Source: Promethearchaeota archaeon (GTDB lineage: Archaea > Asgardarchaeota > Lokiarchaeia > Sigyniarchaeales > SOKP01). Taken from it: a stretch of 20,612 nt of DNA. Below are positions 22-9,193 of this stretch, piece by piece (the first letter of the stretch is position 1; every line of letters begins with the position of its first letter). The translations under genes and the position numbers were made by a program. The stretch spans positions 1-20,612 of the forward strand of contig JAHLWP010000053.1 in NCBI GenBank assembly GCA_019057865.1, in the 5' to 3' direction. The notes under the pieces are model-generated. The model was not told the DNA's origin, searched no databases, and was given only the letters and a program-made list of their open reading frames with translations.

Positions 22-2007
22 GTGAAATCTATGAAAAAAGCAAAAATTTGGGAAGTATCATTAGTTTTATTCCCAATTATATTGGTTTTACCTATAAATA
101 TAATAACTATTCCTATAAAAATAACTGACATAGAAAATATAGGCTCAAATGAAGATTTAAATATTTCGACGGAAAGTGGTGGTGGATATTTTATGAATAC
201 TGATGCTTCTTACTCTTGGATTGAAATCCAAACTACAGGGAATCTTATGATGATTTCTACTTTTGATGATTATTCTGAAGAAATTTCATTTATTGCTAAT
301 GGATGGACTTTTACTTTTTATGAAACTTTTTATGATACTATTGAAGTTAGTTCTAATGGATGGATGAGTTTTACTGATTTAGGGGGTACTGGTTGGCTTT
401 GTAATTATATACCTAGTGCTGAAATTGAAAATTTCGACTGTGTTGCATTATTATGTGAGGATTTACTTCCAAGCTATTCTGGAAACATATATTACCAATT
501 CTTTGGTACTGGACCAAATAGATATTTAGTAATAGAATACAGCCAAATTTACACTTTTGGAGATGAATTAGTAGGAGATTTTGAAGTTATTTTCTATGAG
601 AATGGAACCATCGAATTTCAATACAAAATTATACATGATATTCAATGGTTTTACCCAATTGTTGGATTAGATCATGGTGATCTAACAAATTATAATAGAT
701 ACAACGCTAAATTACCATTAAATTCGAAAGCTATTGAATTTACCTTTAATGAAATGATTGAAATTGAATTGGGACTTAATTTTAATATAGAAGATTCTTT
801 CTCTTGGCTTGTGTTGGATGTTGATCATATCAAGATGGATCTAGCTTTTGACATTTCTTGGGAATCTGATTTTGGCTTGTATCCAAATATGTTGAATGGC
901 CAGAAAACTCAAATAAATATCTCATCAATCAACGAAAATTACACTCATTGGGAGATTAATTATAATACATGGGATTGGATTGGTAAAAATGATACATTTA
1001 GCTCTAGTTACGATGACAACGACAGCATATTATATCGCAAAGAACCTCTTAATTATACTATACCACATATTTTACCAAATCACTATCCATTCCTATTACC
1101 AAATTTTACATTATTGTACCTTAGTAGAGCTAATCTCGATAATTATTATGACAATATAGAGCAATATAATTTTGGCAATACATTTGTTGAAAGTTATTTT
1201 CGTATAAGCACGTATGAAGATGTTGTTCTTCAAGCTTTTTATTCATCTTCCGGGATATTAGAAGAACTCAAAGTTATATACGAATATGATGATTATGAAA
1301 ATTACATCGAAGAAATTATATTCTTAATGGTTAGATACTTTGAAGGACCAAAACCATTTTATGTGGGAGTAAATGAAGGCGAAATTTACGAATACGGAGT
1401 ATTTTATAGTGTAAAAAATGCACCGCCAGGATTTAGCCAAGAAACTTTTGAATATTTCCCTGATAGAATAAGATTTTCTGTTGATTTTATTGGTGGAGAG
1501 GACCCTGAATTGAATCGGGCTCTAGTAATTATAACATTATCAGGAAGAATAAATAACATTTGGACGGAAGAAATGGTATTTGAGAATTACCTTTATATGA
1601 ATACTGAAGATATAGAGGTTTTATTATATATGGGTCAATATATCGAATCGATTACTGTTAATTGGGAATCTTATGCATTAATAATTGAAAATTCTTATAA
1701 TAGGATAATGCCAGGTATGTATACTGTGACTCCCTTAGATGATGGTATAAAACTATCTACTGGAATATTTGGATATAACATGGAGGAAATTATCACTTAT
1801 AACTCCTCTATAGGAGTTCTAAATATTTTATCACAATATTATAATGGTAAAGAATTCCTTACATTCAGATTAAATGATTTTGATTACAAAATCAAAGAAG
1901 CGAAAGGAGCTATCCCAGGCGTAAATATTATTATCCTATCCTTTATTATATTAACGGGAATAATAAGTATTGCATGGCAAATCAGAAGAAAAATTACACT
2001 AAAATAA
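22..2007 (+). CDS. Secreted/membrane-anchored surface protein with C-terminal Loki-CTERM-like sorting signal
   Basis: 661-aa ORF. Basic N-terminus plus hydrophobic stretch (signal peptide/TM). Beta-rich extracellular domain (YDTIEVSSNGWMSF...FEVIFYENGTIEFQY, nidogen/NIDO-like by resemblance) and many N-x-S/T sequons. The C-terminus IPGVN + TM helix + basic tail (RRK) matches the IPG-TM-basic pattern of Loki-CTERM. The real start may be ATG at 31. Confidence 0.75.
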   Translation: MKSMKKAKIWEVSLVLFPIILVLPINIITIPIKITDIENIGSNEDLNISTESGGGYFMNTDASYSWIEIQTTGNLMMISTFDDYSEEISFIANGWTFTFYETFYDTIEVSSNGWMSFTDLGGTGWLCNYIPSAEIENFDCVALLCEDLLPSYSGNIYYQFFGTGPNRYLVIEYSQIYTFGDELVGDFEVIFYENGTIEFQYKIIHDIQWFYPIVGLDHGDLTNYNRYNAKLPLNSKAIEFTFNEMIEIELGLNFNIEDSFSWLVLDVDHIKMDLAFDISWESDFGLYPNMLNGQKTQINISSINENYTHWEINYNTWDWIGKNDTFSSSYDDNDSILYRKEPLNYTIPHILPNHYPFLLPNFTLLYLSRANLDNYYDNIEQYNFGNTFVESYFRISTYEDVVLQAFYSSSGILEELKVIYEYDDYENYIEEIIFLMVRYFEGPKPFYVGVNEGEIYEYGVFYSVKNAPPGFSQETFEYFPDRIRFSVDFIGGEDPELNRALVIITLSGRINNIWTEEMVFENYLYMNTEDIEVLLYMGQYIESITVNWESYALIIENSYNRIMPGMYTVTPLDDGIKLSTGIFGYNMEEIITYNSSIGVLNILSQYYNGKEFLTFRLNDFDYKIKEAKGAIPGVNIIILSFIILTGIISIAWQIRRKITLK

Positions 2008-2023: not shown

Positions 2024-2326
2024 AATTTAATTTAAATTCAAGTAGATTATATTCTTCACAAAATAAGAAATTTAAACTAAGCTAAAAGCTATATATGACT
2101 TTTATTTAATATATGAAAATAAATTAATCTGGAGTTAATTTAAAAAATAAATTTAGATCTGATTTAACTTAATGAAAATTTATATCATTAAAACTAATTT
2201 GAAAAGACATAATTTTTTATAGATATTATTTCTATATATTAATATTAATTATAATAACATTATAAACATTATAAACAATTAATTACATTAATTTATAAAT
2301 AAAACTAAAAAAAAGGGTGTCTAACA

Positions 2327-2814
2327 ATAAGTATTGATACAAAAAGTTTTGACAACATCCTCAGTAAGATAATAAAATCAGAAAGTGGGATTAAAAAGGT
2401 TATATTGGTCGATAGGACGGGACTCACAATTGCCAGTGTCTCGAAGTTTTCCTATTTCCCTGCTGATGTAGATGGTATTGGCGCAATTGCTAGTGCGGTT
2501 TTTTGTGCGAGCGAAGAGCAAGGGAAAAACCTAGAGCTTGGCGAATTAGACATTGTCACATCTGAGTTTAGCGGGGGAAAGATATTCGCGGCAAGCTGTG
2601 GACCAATGAGTTAAAAGGTTTCCTTTAAGCTCGGTTAAAAGGTGTGCTGACGCTTATATCTGATCCGGACATTAACATCGGTTTAATTCGCTTGATCCTA
2701 AAGCGTTCTGGAGATGAACTAAAAGAAATTTTGGACGAATTTCTTGCAGAAATTCCAGAGACGTTAGATAGTGGATTAGATTTATCAGACCTAGATGAGC
2801 TTACACCTGATTAA
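2327..2814 (+). CDS. Roadblock/LC7 (MglB/LAMTOR-like) domain protein, split: exon 1 2327-2606, exon 2 2639-2814; 151 aa if joined
   Basis: Joined translation: (I/M)SIDTKSFDNILSKIIKSESGIKKVILVDRTGLTIASVSKFSYFPADVDGIGAIASAVFCASEEQGKNLELGELDIVTSEFSGGKIFAASCGPKGVLTLISDPDINIGLIRLILKRSGDELKEILDEFLAEIPETLDSGLDLSDLDELTPD*. It has the Roadblock hallmarks (vilvDrtGltia; NIGLIRL helix) plus an acidic tail. The frame is open from the TAA at 2306, and the apparent start is ATA at 2327 behind AGGGTG. Confidence 0.88.
2607..2638 (+). other. Putative 32-nt bulge-helix-bulge-type (relaxed BHB/BHL) intron in a protein-coding gene
   Basis: Central 4-bp helix GACC(2601-2604)/GGUU(2633-2636), 3-nt bulge AAU (2605-2607), intron hairpin GAGUUAAAAGG-UUU-CCUUUAAGCUC (2608-2632; 10 of 11 positions paired), then AAA (2637-2639). 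Cutting after the 2nd nt of each bulge removes exactly 32 nt and restores the frame. Confidence 0.75.
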
Positions 2815-3010
2815 ATCCATTTTTTAGCATCTACTTTTTATTTACAAAAATATTAAGGTCAAAAATGGATCATACTTAGTAAGATCGCAAAAAATCTCAC
2901 AGTTTTACTTAACACTCCTTTCATCCCACAAAAGGCTACAAACATTTAAATTTAGGAATTGTTTGTAATTTACTTAAGGTTAAAAGACTATTCTAAAGTT
3001 TTGACTTAAA

Positions 3011-3433
3011 ATGGAAGAGTTATCATATCAGGTATGGATTAAAGGTTATGATTTGAAAGGAGAGAACGAAATAAAGAGTAATGTCCTTTTTTGTTCCAAA
3101 GATTGTTTTGAACTATTATTTGAATTAATCGAATTATTAAAAGGAGAAATGCGAGATTTTGAACGCAACGATAAAGTTAACAAATATGATACGGATTCCC
3201 TTATTAGGATTGTATCCAACAATTTTAGTTCTGAGGATATCGACGAATATGAGACTGCTGAAAGAGAGATCAGCAATCATCTAAATGAATTAAAAAACAA
3301 TATCTATAGATACACAAATTCTCCAAGAGAAATTACTGAAAAATTAATTTTAATTAGAAAAAAAAGAATTGAACTTTGGGAATTGATTTTTGATACTTAT
3401 AAAAAAAGAAAAAAGGATTTTATAAATCTGTAA
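3011..3433 (+). CDS. Hypothetical protein (140 aa, charged, helical)
   Basis: ATG-started ORF with composition typical of the window; no motif recognised. Confidence 0.6.
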   Translation: MEELSYQVWIKGYDLKGENEIKSNVLFCSKDCFELLFELIELLKGEMRDFERNDKVNKYDTDSLIRIVSNNFSSEDIDEYETAEREISNHLNELKNNIYRYTNSPREITEKLILIRKKRIELWELIFDTYKKRKKDFINL

Positions 3434-3576: not shown

Positions 3577-3903
3577 GTGAAGTATATGGGAAAGACTAGA
3601 TATGTTTCGGTTTGGCGGAACAAGTGGATTACTTCACAAGCTGGTTCCATTGACGATTTTATTAAAACTTTCGAAGGTTTAGCACAAATGTTCAAGGAGT
3701 GGAAGGAAATGGGAATTACACTTAATCCCGACAGCGGTATTGGGGACGATTACGCAGAATTTTATACCGATGATATGGATATGGCAATTAAGGCGCAGTT
3801 TACTTTTTACAGCGGTGATGATAAGACTACAGAATATCTCGAAACCGACACAGGAGAGCAGGTAAAAGTACCCCCAGAAAAGTTAGAAAATCGTAAAATC
3901 TAA
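3577..3903 (+). CDS. Hypothetical acidic protein (108 aa; possibly starts at ATG 3586)
   Basis: ORF with GAGGTGA SD-like motif upstream of ATG 3586; motif-like segments WRNKW and GIGDDYA; function not recognised. Confidence 0.7.
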   Translation: MKYMGKTRYVSVWRNKWITSQAGSIDDFIKTFEGLAQMFKEWKEMGITLNPDSGIGDDYAEFYTDDMDMAIKAQFTFYSGDDKTTEYLETDTGEQVKVPPEKLENRKI

Positions 3904-3990: not shown

Positions 3991-5220
3991 TCAAGCCTCG
4001 CATAATGGAGGATCTTTACCTTTAAAAAAAACAAGATGTTCAATAGCAAATAATTCGCTTATCTGTGCCTCAGAACGCTTTATAGGTTCAAAAATCATTA
4101 GCGGATGGTGAATTTTCAACATCATTAAGACGGGATTATTCTGAACATCTCGCACAGCAAAAAAATAGTAATCAGTACCGTTGTGATGATTGAATACTTG
4201 GTTAGCATTACCGAGAAGGATTTGAACGATATTATTCTGAGTATCTTTTACCTTTTCTTTTGCTTCGAGTAGTCCTAATTCTCGCATAACTTCTTTTAAA
4301 AGGTCAGAAGATCGAACTAAGCTGACAAATCCATCAATATTTAATTGCTCAAAGATCCTTTTTTTCACCTGAAATTGAATGGTGCTCATTTTAATCCCAA
4401 GTCTTTTACAGATAGAGAATATATTAACAACTTTCTTGTAAGAACATAAAGCAGAAATAGATGTGACTAATCCTGCGATAACATCATCTTTCGTATTTTT
4501 AATTTGCTCCCAAAGCTTATGCATGATCTTTTTGGATTGGTAGAAGAAGGGCATTCCTAATTTGAACGATTCGGTAATTTCGAGTATTTTGTGGGTAATG
4601 TATTCTTGTCTATTTCTCTCCTGATATTCAGGGATAAATTTCAAAACTTGTAATGAGAAATCATTAAACTCTTTCTTTGAAATCTTGGAGACTTCTAATA
4701 ATTTTAATCGCCTAATACAGATATTTTCAAGCCTTAAAGTGTAGTAGAGTACAATTGGGACTAATTTTTCGATATTTCTATACTTTGTGCCAGGGCGTAA
4801 TTGTTTCCATATATCCTTAACCCTCTTAAATACAATTCTTTGATATGATCCGGGTAAATTCAAGCAATTAAATATCCGTCTTATCTCCATTTTGACTTTT
4901 TCTTGAATTGATTTAAACCTATCTTTTATTGAATGAATCAAGTTCAAATATTCAAGCTTCACAGAATTGGGAGATTTTTGCCGTTCTCCTTTGGTCCCTA
5001 TTTGAGTCGTTCCTAAGATGGCATATTGAAGGATATCGTCATTATAATGTCGATCATATTGTAGTTTTTGTATTTCTAAGACAATTCCACAATCTCCACA
5101 GACATAACCCTCAATAGTTTCTTGGATATTAGCAGAACTGCATAGATCACATGAAACCGAAGAGAAATGTGGGGAAATGGAACTTGAAATATTGTTATTA
5201 ATCACCATTTTTTTGATCAC
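3991..5220 (-). CDS. Divergent transcription initiation factor IIB (TFB/TFIIB)-like protein
   Basis: N-terminal Zn ribbon CDLC-x-YVCGDCGIVL. Cyclin-fold-like repeats (EIRRIFNCLNLP; RNIEKLVPIVLYYTLR; a second repeat ending ICKRLGIKMSTI, HTH-like). About 100-aa C-terminal extension. Too divergent to call the housekeeping tfb. Confidence 0.75.
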   Translation of the reverse strand: MIKKMVINNNISSSISPHFSSVSCDLCSSANIQETIEGYVCGDCGIVLEIQKLQYDRHYNDDILQYAILGTTQIGTKGERQKSPNSVKLEYLNLIHSIKDRFKSIQEKVKMEIRRIFNCLNLPGSYQRIVFKRVKDIWKQLRPGTKYRNIEKLVPIVLYYTLRLENICIRRLKLLEVSKISKKEFNDFSLQVLKFIPEYQERNRQEYITHKILEITESFKLGMPFFYQSKKIMHKLWEQIKNTKDDVIAGLVTSISALCSYKKVVNIFSICKRLGIKMSTIQFQVKKRIFEQLNIDGFVSLVRSSDLLKEVMRELGLLEAKEKVKDTQNNIVQILLGNANQVFNHHNGTDYYFFAVRDVQNNPVLMMLKIHHPLMIFEPIKRSEAQISELFAIEHLVFFKGKDPPLCEA

Positions 5221-6227: not shown

Positions 6228-7190
6228 ATGTTTGTAAATAGCCTTAACATTAAAGAATTTAGGGGAATAAAGAGTTGTAAAGGACCAATAAAGTTTTCAA
6301 ATTTTACTGTTATAATTGGAAGAAATAACTCCGGAAAATCAACAATTTTAGAGGCACTATCATTATTACCACATCCAGAATTAAGAAATGTAATCGATGG
6401 GGCAAACAAAAATAGGTTTCTTGTACAGCTTCATCCTGGATCATATACAAGACTTCTATATCTTTATGCTGGTATTTCGATCCTAGAATATGATCTGAAA
6501 AATATCTTTATGAGGATTGAAATAGAAAAAAGTCTTTTTAAAACTTTTTTAGGTGGAAAAGAAGTAGAATCACTGAATTATGTAGCTAAAGCCCTTGGCA
6601 CTGAAATAAAATACTTAGATAGTTTTGTAATTTTTATTCCAGATACTGCAGATATTCTCAACAAACTAGAGAATAGATTGAAAGATCATAAAGAATTGCT
6701 AACGAAGAAAGGATTCAATATTAAGCTCGCAAACATACTTAATGAATTTGTTAATGATAAATATAGTGAAATTATTTTTGTAAATCCAATTATCTTAAGA
6801 AAAGTATATCTAAATAATAAAATAGCTTATATACGGCTTGCTGAACTAGGATCAGGTGCTGAAAAAGTGATAAAAATTATGGCTTTTTTGGAAGTGTTTT
6901 CCCCACAATTAGTGATAATTGATGATTTTGAAGCAAGACTTCATCCTAGCTTAGTTAAACTTTTTCTCAAATGGCTAAAGGAAAAAAATTGGCAAACTAT
7001 AATTTCAACTCATAGTATAGATGTATTATATTATTTGATAGATATAAATCCTAAAGATACGACTATTTTACAATTAAATAAATCAAATGAGGACATTTTA
7101 AGTCATAAAAGCTTACCATTAGAAGAACTTGAAGATATATTGAATGCAAATATAGATCCACGCTCACTAGTAGATAATCTTGGTTTATGA
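6228..7190 (+). CDS. ABC-type ATPase (AAA_15/AAA_21, OLD/AbiEii-like)
   Basis: IKEFRGI N-terminal motif, Walker A GRNNSGKS, signature-like LGSG, Walker B/D-loop IIDDFEARLHP, H-loop STHS. Confidence 0.9.
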   Translation: MFVNSLNIKEFRGIKSCKGPIKFSNFTVIIGRNNSGKSTILEALSLLPHPELRNVIDGANKNRFLVQLHPGSYTRLLYLYAGISILEYDLKNIFMRIEIEKSLFKTFLGGKEVESLNYVAKALGTEIKYLDSFVIFIPDTADILNKLENRLKDHKELLTKKGFNIKLANILNEFVNDKYSEIIFVNPIILRKVYLNNKIAYIRLAELGSGAEKVIKIMAFLEVFSPQLVIIDDFEARLHPSLVKLFLKWLKEKNWQTIISTHSIDVLYYLIDINPKDTTILQLNKSNEDILSHKSLPLEELEDILNANIDPRSLVDNLGL

Positions 7191-7842
7191 AAAAAGTGAT
7201 TGTATGAGATTAGTACAGGATCTTAAGGGACTTAATCCCAACTACATAATTATTACGGGTGATGGACGAAGAGAATTTAATGTACTAAGAGGATTGTCTG
7301 AGGTATATAATGGGCAAGATATAATTCTCTATTTTCCATTTTCTCCTCTTTTTAGAAAAACTGGTAAAAAAGCACTTGATTCTATAAAAATCCTGCCTGG
7401 TTATTATGGAATTAGCTCAATAATCTATATTGTTGATGGAGATACATTTAAAGATTCTTTTAATGATGAAATCCAAAATTATTTGATAAGCATTGGTATA
7501 GAGATTAAAAATTTTACTTCAATTCAAAATGCTTTATTAATTAATTGTAAATGTGGCAGTCATAATATTGTATTATATTGCATCATCTCTGGACCAAAAA
7601 CTTTTATCGAAGAGGAAATTGTAAAACTGCTAAATCTTAAATGGGGAGAGGAAATTGATCTTTCAGGAATAAGAGATCCTACTTGGAAAAAAAGAGTTAA
7701 AAAGCAAGTAAATCAATTATTAAAAGAAAAGAAGATAAAACTTGAATCTTTAATAAAAGAAACTGAGAAAGAAAAACTTGAAACCTCATTCCCAAATATA
7801 TGTGCCATCCTTAAAAAAATTGAAGAAGAACATCGATCATAA
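7180..7842 (+). CDS. ATPase partner, TOPRIM-like (DUF3226/DUF4435-like) protein
   Basis: Overlaps or abuts the ATPase stop. IIITGDGRRE and YIVDGD resemble the TOPRIM EG-x2-D/E and DxD motifs, and a later FIEEEI resembles the ExE motif of OLD-type TOPRIMs. Start is TTG 7180 or ATG 7204. Confidence 0.55.
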   Translation: MVYEKSDCMRLVQDLKGLNPNYIIITGDGRREFNVLRGLSEVYNGQDIILYFPFSPLFRKTGKKALDSIKILPGYYGISSIIYIVDGDTFKDSFNDEIQNYLISIGIEIKNFTSIQNALLINCKCGSHNIVLYCIISGPKTFIEEEIVKLLNLKWGEEIDLSGIRDPTWKKRVKKQVNQLLKEKKIKLESLIKETEKEKLETSFPNICAILKKIEEEHRS

Positions 7843-8560: not shown

Positions 8561-9193
8561 ATGATGGGCTTAAAAGAAGATAATGAGGATTCAAGCAGGC
8601 AATTTATAACCATTAGAAATACTAATTGTAAAGAAGATTCAACTATTAGTAAAGTTGCTGTTATAGATCTTGAAACTACAGGTTTGGATCCAATAAATGA
8701 TTTAATTATTGAAATTGGAATTGTCGAATTAAATTTGAAAACATGTGAAACTAAAACCCTTTTTAATTCATTCATTAAAGAACCAACATTTGGAGAAAAA
8801 CATAGAGATTCATGGATTTTTAACAACTCAGATATAAATTTTGAAGATATACAAAATGCTCCACCGTTTGAAGAATTTAAAGAAATATTAAATAATATTT
8901 TTGATAATTATTCTACTACAGCTTATAATAAGTCATTTGATCTAGGTTTTTTAAAAGCACGAGGGATTAAAATCCAAAAAGAATTACCCTGTATAATGCG
9001 AACAGCAACAAATATATGTAAAATTCCATTTCCTAACGGAGGGAGAGGATATAAATGGCCAAAATGCCAAGAAGCATTGGATTTTTTCTTTCCGAAAAGT
9101 GAATACATTGAAAAACATAGAGCTGCTGATGATGCAGCACATGAAGCTAAAATTCTTTTTGAATTGTATAAACGTGGATATTTTCAACTCTAA
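8561..9193 (+). CDS. DEDDh 3'-5' exonuclease (DnaQ/Pol III epsilon-like)
   Basis: ExoI VIDLETTGLD, ExoII AYNKSFD, ExoIII HRAADDA. Confidence 0.93.
   Translation: MMGLKEDNEDSSRQFITIRNTNCKEDSTISKVAVIDLETTGLDPINDLIIEIGIVELNLKTCETKTLFNSFIKEPTFGEKHRDSWIFNNSDINFEDIQNAPPFEEFKEILNNIFDNYSTTAYNKSFDLGFLKARGIKIQKELPCIMRTATNICKIPFPNGGRGYKWPKCQEALDFFFPKSEYIEKHRAADDAAHEAKILFELYKRGYFQL

What the first reader, a model, noticed from the sequence alone, without database searches (positions are those of the whole stretch)
2601..2643. Candidate tRNA-endonuclease-spliced (BHB-type) mRNA intron in an Asgard Roadblock/LC7 gene
Seen: the Roadblock frame breaks at ...SCGP and resumes 32 nt later, in another frame, with KGVLTLISDPDINIGLIRL. 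The insert has stops in all three frames (TGA 2607, TAA 2612, TAA 2626), so neither readthrough nor a single frameshift can rescue it. The RNA folds as GACC-AAU-[GAGUUAAAAGG UUU CCUUUAAGCUC]-GGUU-AAA: a 4-bp helix, a 3-nt bulge, an intron stem and a second unpaired triplet. Established: archaeal splicing endonuclease (EndA) cuts after the second nucleotide of each 3-nt bulge and RtcB ligates; the well-documented mRNA case is crenarchaeal cbf5. Applying that rule cuts after 2606 and 2638, giving CCA A|AA GGT and a full 151-aa protein, so structure and protein fold independently predict the same junction. Inference: an mRNA intron in a eukaryotic-signature gene family of an Asgard archaeon, possibly a splicing-gated expression switch comparable to non-spliceosomal HAC1/XBP1 splicing. 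I know of no description for this gene but cannot check the literature. Caveats: the exon-exon helix is weak (relaxed BHL-like motif), and the gene also lacks an ATG start.
Basis: partly seen in the sequence, partly recalled or inferred. Interest (0 to 1): 0.93.

Follow-up and report, generated by a model that had tools for sequence, protein, structure and literature searches.

The report
tRNA-type mini-intron in Asgard Roadblock gene
A 32-base insert that breaks a highly conserved Roadblock/LC7 gene of a Loki-type Asgard archaeon has the shape, cut sites and evolutionary behaviour of an intron removed by the tRNA-splicing enzyme; in the papers I could search, this kind of splicing inside a coding sequence is reported for only one archaeal gene (cbf5).

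Summary
Window 2607-2638 is a 32-nt insert with stops in all three frames, and it splits the only orthologue of a conserved Roadblock/LC7 gene in this Promethearchaeota (Loki-type) genome.

Removing exactly these bases gives ...SCGPKGVLT..., which is the sequence of about 37 uninterrupted orthologues in the same genus. Eight distinct alleles carry an insert at this site: 4 species genomes and 4 metagenome contigs. In all of them:
- the insert is 31-32 nt;
- the geometry is the same: 4-nt helix strand, 3-nt bulge, hairpin, complementary 4-nt strand, 3 nt;
- 8 of 9 hairpin pairs show compensatory changes;
- exon 2 stays under strong purifying selection (pN/pS 0.04-0.17 at near-saturated pS).

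The four genome alleles also have an exon-exon helix that intronless alleles lack. Three metagenome alleles carry a second intron in the same gene, with a perfect 4-bp helix.

The genome encodes two EndA paralogues and RtcB. Its single uS12 gene and three further genes carry the same kind of insert.

No RNA data were available, so splicing itself is inferred. The "expression switch" idea is untested.

Earlier notes of this scan report the same phenomenon on other Asgard DNA. I found no report of it in the papers I could search, beyond crenarchaeal cbf5.

The parts
2315..2319 (+). Shine-Dalgarno-like GGGTG upstream of the likely start
   Evidence: Read from the sequence. The same stretch appears as a conserved 'KRC/KGC' pseudo-translation (AAAGGTG) upstream of all orthologues. 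Its role is inferred.
2327..2606 (+). Exon 1 of the Roadblock/LC7 gene (likely near-cognate start ATA 2327; ends ...TGT GGA CCA A)
   Evidence: Pfam Robl_LC7 E 2e-8. It is 95-100% identical in protein to same-genus orthologues. ATA 2327 aligns with the ATG of orthologues L022, L026 and L028.
2587..2597 (+). 5' strand of the exon-exon helix (h)
   Evidence: MFE fold. Duplex energy is -9.3 kcal/mol here and -12.2 to -15.7 in the three other genome alleles with the intron, against 0 to -5.6 in about 27 intronless alleles.
2601..2604 (+). Central helix H, 5' strand (GACC)
   Evidence: Pairs with GGUU 2633-2636. GACC is invariant in all 8 intron alleles.
2605..2607 (+). 5' three-nucleotide bulge AAU; predicted cut between 2606 and 2607
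   Evidence: Unpaired in the MFE fold. In allele G022 the only cut positions that restore the conserved protein are after the second nucleotide of this bulge and of the 3' triplet.
2607..2638 (+). 32-nt BHB-type intron (stops in all three frames)
   Evidence: Absent from about 37 same-genus orthologues, whose sequence equals the predicted spliced product. Homologous 31-32-nt inserts lie at the same site in G022, G062, G077 and metagenome loci L121, L122, L124 and L125.
2608..2632 (+). Intron hairpin h' (5 bp, A.A mismatch, 5 bp, loop UUU)
   Evidence: Fold. 8 of 9 aligned stem pairs show changes on both sides across 8 alleles; 89.6% of cells are paired against at most 48% in slid controls.
2633..2636 (+). 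Central helix H, 3' strand (GGUU)
   Evidence: Other alleles have AGUU or GAUU, which gives one C.A mismatch in 6 of 8 alleles.
2637..2639 (+). 3' triplet AAA; predicted cut between 2638 and 2639. It lies in a 4x3 internal loop, so the 3' side of the motif is relaxed.
   Evidence: MFE fold. The cut position is fixed by the orthologue sequence.
2639..2814 (+). Exon 2 (AA GGT GTG ... GAT TAA), the C-terminal 58 codons including the split Lys codon
   Evidence: Translation. The spliced protein is identical to that of G012 from ISIDTK to the end, although synonymous sites are near saturation.
2641..2652 (+). 3' strand of the exon-exon helix (h)

Best explanation
[quoted passage not shown] In the transcript, exon 1 and exon 2 pair to form an outer helix. 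GACC pairs with GGUU to form the 4-bp central helix, and the intron forms an 11-bp hairpin. The archaeal splicing endonuclease (here apparently an alpha/beta heteromer) cuts two nucleotides 3' of each central-helix strand, after 2606 and after 2638. RtcB joins the exons to ...CCA AAA GGT..., giving a 151-aa protein, and the 32-nt intron is released (probably as a circle). The motif is the relaxed HBh' form: the 5' bulge is canonical, and the 3' site sits in a small internal loop. Shown here: the structure, its conservation and covariation, the exact match of the predicted product to intronless orthologues, selection on exon 2, the presence of the enzymes, and the same device in other genes of this genome, including an essential one. 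Inferred: that cleavage and ligation actually occur, and that splicing is constitutive.
For: 1. Junction. About 37 of 41 same-genus orthologues are uninterrupted and read GGN CCN AAR GGN (SCGPKGVLT), which is the predicted spliced sequence.

2. Geometry in independent alleles. G022, G062, G077 and metagenome loci L121, L122, L124 and L125 carry 31-32-nt inserts at the same site. All have the layout GACC / 3 nt / hairpin / RRUU / 3 nt. In G022 the only frame-restoring cuts are two nucleotides 3' of each H strand.

3. Covariation. 8 of 9 hairpin pairs have changes on both sides. 89.6% of cells are paired against 35-48% in slid controls. The covariation score is 0.304 against 0.153 when shuffled (0 of 500 shuffles reach it).

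4. Exon-exon helix. It is present only in intron-bearing genome alleles (-9.3 to -15.7 against 0 to -5.6 kcal/mol) and is built from the codons GCG and ACG, which the intronless alleles mostly do not use at these two positions.

5. Not a pseudogene. Exon 2 pN/pS is 0.04-0.17 at pS 0.5-0.87 among intron alleles. The spliced window protein is identical to that of G012 from ISIDTK to the end. It is the only orthologue in a 99.7%-complete genome.

6. Second intron. Alleles L121, L122 and L124 carry a second intron (31, 31 and 34 nt) at FCASE|EQGKN. It has a perfect 4-bp H, UCAG/CUGA or UCUG/CAGA (a compensatory change), and the same cut rule restores the protein.

7. Host competence. There are two EndA-domain genes, one with and one without the catalytic His, plus RtcB. 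Asgard EndA is reported as the (alpha-beta)2 type with the L1 loop that confers broad specificity (PMC5829648).

8. Same device elsewhere in this genome. The single uS12 gene has a 30-nt BHB insert with an in-frame TAA. Its Pfam profile runs 2-54 | 56-108 across the insert, and five relatives lack the insert. The same holds for an EF-2-like GTPase, an NAD-epimerase and a Zn-ADH.

9. Not an assembly artefact.
Against: - There is no RNA-level evidence, so the spliced junction and the excised intron were not observed.
- The central helix is weak. It includes a G.U pair here, and 6 of 8 alleles have a C.A mismatch.
- The 3' cut site lies in a 4x3 internal loop, not a clean 3-nt bulge.
- The single-sequence fold z-score is only -2.38.
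- The metagenome alleles were found with a pattern that required the exon-helix sequences. They therefore say nothing independent about that helix, and the frequency of the intron cannot be estimated from them.
- The four genome alleles are scattered on the gene tree (monophyly rejected, p-AU 0.03). The history therefore needs several losses or transfers.
Confidence: 0.88

Rival explanations
1. Pseudogene: a 32-nt insertion inactivated the gene, and the two halves are decaying or tolerated remnants.
For: The insert shifts the frame and carries stops in all frames. Most relatives lack it. The gene has no ATG start. Gene fragments of this family exist elsewhere.
Against: Exon 2 has pN/pS of 0.04-0.17 at near-saturated synonymous divergence among eight insert-bearing alleles, with no further stops or frameshifts. 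The insert's hairpin is kept by compensatory changes. Synonymous sites of both exons are constrained to pair. It is the only orthologue in the genome. The same kind of insert sits in the single uS12 gene, which cannot be a pseudogene. Intact orthologues also lack ATG.
Confidence: 0.03
2. Split gene: the two ORFs (2327-2614 and a restart near 2644) are translated separately and the halves assemble without RNA splicing.
For: A 56-aa ORF with a GTG start at 2644 exists, and AAGGTG lies just upstream of it.
Against: The GTG is simply the Val codon of the conserved KGVLT, and it is GTT or GTA in other intron alleles. The spacing from the SD-like motif is zero. This model does not explain the conserved BHB geometry, the exact frame-restoring cut rule, the exon-exon helix or the covarying hairpin. 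The break lies inside the Robl_LC7 domain.
Confidence: 0.03
3. Translational recoding: the ribosome bypasses about 32 nt (a hop of the T4 gene 60 type), or two frameshifts occur.
For: A hairpin directly after a stop codon resembles bypass signals.
Against: There are no matching take-off and landing codons. Stops in all frames exclude simple frameshifting. The elements that are conserved are those of a BHB motif (H strands two nucleotides 5' of each boundary), and the same motif recurs in unrelated genes with different codons at the boundaries.
Confidence: 0.02
4. Regulated splicing switch: the intron is real, but its removal is conditional and gates production of full-length against truncated Roadblock, as in HAC1/XBP1.
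For: Unspliced mRNA would give a defined 94-aa truncated product. [quoted passage not shown]
Against: About 90% of same-genus orthologues, including the closest ones, do without the intron and have the same protein. Similar introns sit in housekeeping genes such as uS12, where a switch is implausible. No regulatory element beyond the BHB is conserved.
Confidence: 0.08

Closest known systems
BHB intron in the cbf5 (pseudouridine synthase) pre-mRNA of Crenarchaeota (Watanabe 2002; Yoshinari 2006; Yokobori 2009, PMC2738675)
   Same: It is a short intron inside an archaeal coding sequence, flanked by a BHB-type motif, in a host with a hetero-oligomeric EndA. It is present in some lineages and lost in others, and its removal restores the conserved protein.
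   Different: The gene is different (Roadblock/LC7), the phylum is different (Promethearchaeota), and the motif is relaxed on its 3' side. Splicing is shown experimentally for cbf5 but only inferred here. This genome has several such genes rather than one.
BHB introns of archaeal tRNA genes, very abundant in some Asgard lineages (PMC11291895; bioRxiv 10.64898/2026.10.13.758758)
   Same: The recognition motif, the enzymes (EndA, RtcB) and the small size are the same. Both show repeated gain and loss, with an unknown route of arrival.
   Different: The substrate here is an mRNA coding region, so the cut must preserve a reading frame, and the flanking helix is built from codons. The cited papers report tRNA introns only.
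BHB intron in the 5' UTR of Haloferax volcanii HVO_1309 (PMC7714728)
   Same: An mRNA substrate of the archaeal splicing endonuclease, confirmed there by circRNA-seq and in vitro cleavage.
   Different: It lies in an untranslated leader, not in the coding sequence, so it does not interrupt a protein.
HAC1/XBP1 unconventional cytoplasmic splicing (IRE1 plus tRNA ligase/RtcB)
   Same: Protein-enzyme, spliceosome-independent removal of a short intron from an mRNA. The cuts fall in small loops next to stems, ligation is by a tRNA-ligase-type enzyme, and the reading frame changes on splicing.
   Different: The endonuclease is IRE1, not EndA, and that splicing is stress-regulated. No sign of regulation is seen here.
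BHB processing sites and introns in archaeal rRNA precursors
   Same: The same endonuclease motif is used outside tRNA.
   Different: That is non-coding RNA, with no reading frame to restore.

Membership tests
Archaeal BHB (splicing-endonuclease) intron | Central 4-bp helix flanked by two 3-nt bulges on opposite strands (relaxed forms HBh'/hBH allowed for broad-specificity EndA) | tested here: met
   GACC/GGUU form a 4-bp helix with a clean 3-nt 5' bulge (AAU). The 3' site lies in a 4x3 internal loop, so this is the relaxed HBh' form and not the strict one. The layout is the same in 8 alleles, with a C.A mismatch in H in 6 of 8.
Archaeal BHB (splicing-endonuclease) intron | Cuts at symmetric positions (two nucleotides 3' of each central-helix strand) give the functional mature sequence | tested here: met
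   The rule yields CCA AAA GGT, which is the sequence of the uninterrupted orthologues. In G022 these are the only possible frame-restoring cuts. The same rule restores uS12 with contiguous Pfam profile positions 54 | 55 | 56.
Archaeal BHB (splicing-endonuclease) intron | Structure maintained in evolution (covariation) | tested here: met
   8 of 9 intron-stem pairs are compensatory, and 0 of 500 shuffles reach the observed score. The exon helix is specific to intron-bearing alleles.
Archaeal BHB (splicing-endonuclease) intron | Host encodes splicing endonuclease and RtcB ligase | tested here: met
   There are two PF01974 genes (200 and 207 aa; only the first keeps the catalytic His by my reading) and one RtcB. 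I did not check the L1 specificity loop myself; it is reported for Asgard in PMC5829648.
Archaeal BHB (splicing-endonuclease) intron | Spliced RNA and excised (circular) intron exist in vivo, or cleavage occurs in vitro | not testable with these tools
   No RNA run holding this stretch was listed. An experiment is needed.
cbf5 mRNA intron family (Crenarchaeota) | Located in the cbf5 gene at its conserved position | tested here: not met
   The host gene is Roadblock/LC7. This is an analogue in mechanism, not a member.
Roadblock/LC7 (PF03259) protein family | Match to the Pfam domain above the curated cut-off | tested here: met
   Exon 1 alone scores 34.3 bits against a cut-off of 23. The uninterrupted orthologue scores 39.9 bits over profile positions 7-90 of 91, plus MAPKK1_Int at 28.1 bits.

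The most novel reading that the evidence does not exclude
Removal of the Roadblock intron is conditional. For example, it could depend on EndA/RtcB activity or on co-transcriptional folding of the weak central helix. The cell would then switch between a truncated 94-aa product and the full 151-aa Roadblock protein. That would be an archaeal counterpart of HAC1/XBP1-type regulated mRNA splicing, acting on a eukaryotic-signature GTPase-regulator family.
Probability: 0.08. Interest if true: 0.9.

Novelty: new member of a known kind. Interest (0 to 1): 0.72.

Why it matters
In the papers I could search, splicing of an archaeal coding sequence by the tRNA-splicing endonuclease is reported for one gene only, cbf5 in Crenarchaeota. 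A 2020 study still calls it the single example besides a 5' UTR case (PMC7714728).

Here the same mechanism is strongly indicated in Promethearchaeota, the phylum closest to eukaryotes. It affects a eukaryotic-signature Roadblock/LC7 gene and, in the same genome, the only uS12 gene, an EF-2-like GTPase and two enzymes.

This has three consequences:
- Gene callers will mis-annotate such genes as truncated or as pseudogenes.
- Asgard cells would have to run protein-enzyme mRNA splicing alongside translation without a nucleus.
- These roughly 30-nt introns are gained and lost among close species. That gives a tractable system for asking how introns invade coding genes in the lineage from which eukaryotes arose.

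Tried and rejected
- **RNA evidence.** No RNA holder was listed for window 2300-2900. Only DNA contigs could be laid. Runs X2 and X3 laid nothing, and X1 and X4 look like one data set.
- **Motif-only genome census**. It required H with at least 3 bp, a 4-bp stem start and long ORFs on both sides. It gave 48,515 hits with an in-frame share of about 1/3, which is the null value. The scan cannot count introns. It served only to nominate candidates, which I then checked by Pfam.
- **False positive found.** One nominee (C50:1347) proved to be an ABC ATPase/permease gene pair.
- **Paralogue-spanning BLAST of candidate junctions**. It mostly returned inserts of multiples of 3 nt that are coding in the paralogue, so they are not introns.
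- **Long-flank MFE folds of the second intron**. They were dominated by other pairings. Folds of narrower stretches with the central helix forced to pair were used instead.
- **Chance and duplicate hits.** L126 from the metagenome pattern is a chance hit, and L123 duplicates G022.
- **Literature.** PMC3064391 (Tocchini-Valentini 2011) is not held. Searches for Asgard mRNA introns returned only tRNA-intron papers.
- **Explanations considered and rejected.** Assembly artefact, a repeat or mobile-element copy (the hairpin occurs once in the window), and a tRNA gene overlap (none in the window).

Full report
**Observation**

A frame opening at about 2312 encodes a Roadblock/LC7 domain (PF03259, E 2e-8, profile 7-83 of 91) and ends ...SCGPMS* at 2612-2614. 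A second frame reads KGVLTLISDPDINIGLIRL... to TAA 2812-2814.

Between them lie 32 nt with stops in all three frames (2607, 2612, 2626). RNAfold of 2585-2660 gives:
- an outer exon-exon helix (2587-2597 with 2641-2652);
- a 4-bp helix GACC/GGUU;
- a 3-nt bulge AAU;
- an 11-bp hairpin with one A.A mismatch;
- an AAAA/GUG internal loop on the 3' side.

The energy is -23.0 kcal/mol with z -2.38. The fold alone is only moderately unusual. A Logan contig at word depth 257 reproduces 2441-2900 exactly, so the insert is in the DNA.

**Orthologues**

The window is contig C56 of a 4.26-Mb, 99.7%-complete genome. Its relatives are named Promethearchaeota/Promethearchaeia MAGs, so the Asgard assignment is right.

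The genome has one orthologue of this gene, a 46%-identical uninterrupted paralogue (153 aa) and a 36-codon fragment. Of 54 genomes of the genus, 41 hold the orthologue, at 95-100% protein identity in exon 1.

Thirty-seven of these have an open frame of about 156 codons and read GGN CCN AAR GGN GTN (SCGPKGV). This is the product predicted by cutting after 2606 and 2638. The spliced window protein is identical to that of G012 from ISIDTK to the last residue. In an uninterrupted orthologue the Robl_LC7 match runs across the junction (residues 13-99).

**Other intron-bearing alleles**

Three more species (G022, G062, G077) are interrupted at the same codon. A pattern scan of metagenome contigs with the intron left unspecified found four further distinct alleles: L121, L122, L124 and L125.

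All eight have the layout GACC / 3 nt / hairpin (4-5 bp, one bulged or mismatched base, 5 bp, loop of 3-6) / RRUU / 3 nt / AGG. Intron lengths are 31 or 32 nt. In G022 the flanking bases differ, so only one pair of cuts restores CCA AAA GGA: two nucleotides 3' of GACC and two nucleotides 3' of AGUU. That is the symmetric BHB cleavage rule. The rule itself is established knowledge (the motif as described in PMC5829648 and PMC6379350). The exact position inside the bulge rests on my own knowledge and is corroborated here by the protein alignments.

**Covariation and selection**

On the 8-sequence alignment A1, the named structure has:
- 89.6% of cells paired, against 35-48% when the partner is slid by 1-3 columns;
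- 8 of 9 intron-stem pairs with changes on both sides;
- a covariation score of 0.304 against 0.153 in shuffles (0 of 500 reach it).

The central helix never covaries and has a C.A mismatch in 6 of 8 alleles, so it is weak.

The exon-exon duplex is -9.3 to -15.7 kcal/mol in the four genome alleles with the intron, and 0 to -5.6 in about 27 intronless ones. It is made by synonymous choices (GCG, TCA/TCG, TTG, ACG). The metagenome alleles cannot be counted for this point, because my search pattern required those exon bases.

Among intron-bearing alleles, exon 2 shows pN/pS of 0.04-0.17 at pS 0.5-0.87, with no extra stops. The coding capacity downstream of a frame-breaking insert has therefore been kept over long divergence.

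**A second intron in the same gene**

In L121, L122 and L124 the gene is interrupted again, at FCASE|EQGKN, by 31, 31 and 34 nt. There the central helix is a perfect 4 bp: UCAG/CUGA in L121 and UCUG/CAGA in L122 and L124, which is a compensatory change. The bulges are 3 nt. The same cut rule restores IASAVFCASEEQGKNLELGN in all three. The window lacks this intron.

**Host competence and other genes**

The genome has two genes with the EndA catalytic domain. By my reading of the ORFs, one keeps the Tyr-His-Lys pattern and the other lacks the His. This fits the (alpha-beta)2 enzyme with the L1 loop reported for Asgard, the type that accepts relaxed motifs (PMC5829648). RtcB is present.

My motif-only genome scan was uninformative as a census, but it nominated candidates that I tested with Pfam:

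| Gene | Insert | Evidence |
|---|---|---|
| uS12 (single copy) | 30 nt, in-frame TAA | Exon 1 matches profile 2-54 and exon 2 matches 56-108 of PF00164. Fold z -3.89. Five relatives lack the insert and read the predicted junction PGDGALNF. |
| EF-2-like GTPase | 30 nt | H UCAG/CUGA; GTP_EFTU profile 3-37 then 49-143. |
| NAD-epimerase | 34 nt | Profile 63-124 then 135-240. |
| Zn-ADH | 29 nt | Removal restores the GICGSDVH motif. |

An essential single-copy ribosomal protein gene with such an insert means this organism must splice mRNAs of this kind.

**History**

On a gene tree of 33 coding sequences, the four genome alleles with the intron fall in four places, and monophyly is rejected at p-AU 0.03. 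The introns are visibly homologous (for example GAATTAGAGA, GAATTAGGGA, GAATTGGAGT). The simplest account is therefore one old gain followed by several losses or allele exchange, as described for cbf5 (PMC2738675). This is inference from a 441-column gene tree, not a species tree.

**Comparison with what is known**

The searchable literature reports BHB introns in archaeal coding sequences only for cbf5. It also reports a 5' UTR intron in Haloferax (PMC7714728). For Asgard it reports very intron-rich tRNA genes (PMC11291895; 10.64898/2026.10.13.758758), with no mention of mRNA. I found no paper on a Roadblock intron.

Earlier notes of this scan report the same phenomenon in this genome (thiolase, cooS, dnaG and others) and in many other Asgard genomes, some with RNA support. 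I did not re-test those genes. My own checks found different genes of the same kind.

**Verdict**

This is a genuine BHB-type mRNA intron with high probability (0.88): a new member of a known kind. Pseudogene, split-gene and recoding explanations each fail to account for the conserved geometry, the covariation, the exon helix and the selection on exon 2. The regulatory-switch idea is neither supported nor excluded, and I consider it unlikely because most relatives lack the intron. Direct RNA or biochemical evidence is still missing.

Noticed in passing
L121:~460-500 (+), L122 and L124 (- strand), upstream of the main intron: A second BHB mini-intron (31, 31 and 34 nt) in the same Roadblock gene at FCASE|EQGKN. 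It has a perfect, covarying 4-bp central helix (UCAG/CUGA against UCUG/CAGA). It is absent from the window and from all species genomes searched.
   Followed up: yes
G000:C27:25030-25059 (- strand; locus L132): The only uS12 (ribosomal protein S12/S23) gene of this genome carries a 30-nt BHB insert with an in-frame TAA. The Pfam profile is contiguous across it, and five relatives lack it.
   Followed up: yes
G000:C82:40874-40903 (-), G000:C75:2669-2702 (+), G000:C60:11315-11343 (-); loci L131, L133, L130: Three more protein genes have 29-34-nt BHB-like inserts: an EF-2-like GTPase, an NAD-dependent epimerase and a Zn alcohol dehydrogenase (removal restores GICGSDVH). They were checked only by Pfam profile continuity, not in relatives.
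   Followed up: partly
window 2315-2335: The Roadblock gene has no ATG, GTG or TTG start. ATA 2327 lies 7 nt after a GGGTG Shine-Dalgarno-like motif and aligns with the ATG of some orthologues. Several uninterrupted orthologues (for example G012, G030, G016) also lack a canonical start, which suggests near-cognate initiation.
   Followed up: partly
L003 (G000:C53:50930-51037); L124 upstream of the gene; L125: Partial copies of this Roadblock gene occur elsewhere. One is a 36-codon 5' fragment in the same genome, whose first residues (IKISIDT) match those of the G012/G030 allele rather than the window's own (LTISIDT). A short internal fragment lies upstream of the L124 gene. In L125 the 3' part, including the intron, follows in frame behind a long unrelated ORF that I read, unchecked, as M20-peptidase-like. 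This could be rearrangement, recombination remnants or chimeric contigs.
   Followed up: no
window 6228-7842 and 8561-9193: An AAA_15/AAA_21 ATPase (320 aa) overlaps a 220-aa ORF with no Pfam match; this may be a defence-type gene pair. An RNase_T-family exonuclease lies nearby. The large ORFs 22-2007, 3011-3433, 3577-3903 and 3991-5220 (the last with an N-terminal CxxC...CxxC motif) have no Pfam match.
   Followed up: no
L011, L024, L031 (intronless orthologues): A few intronless alleles keep part of the exon-exon complementarity (GCGTCA... / ...TTGACGC or TTAACGC; -5.0 to -5.5 kcal/mol). This could be a trace of recent intron loss or a pre-existing site that favours intron gain.
   Followed up: no
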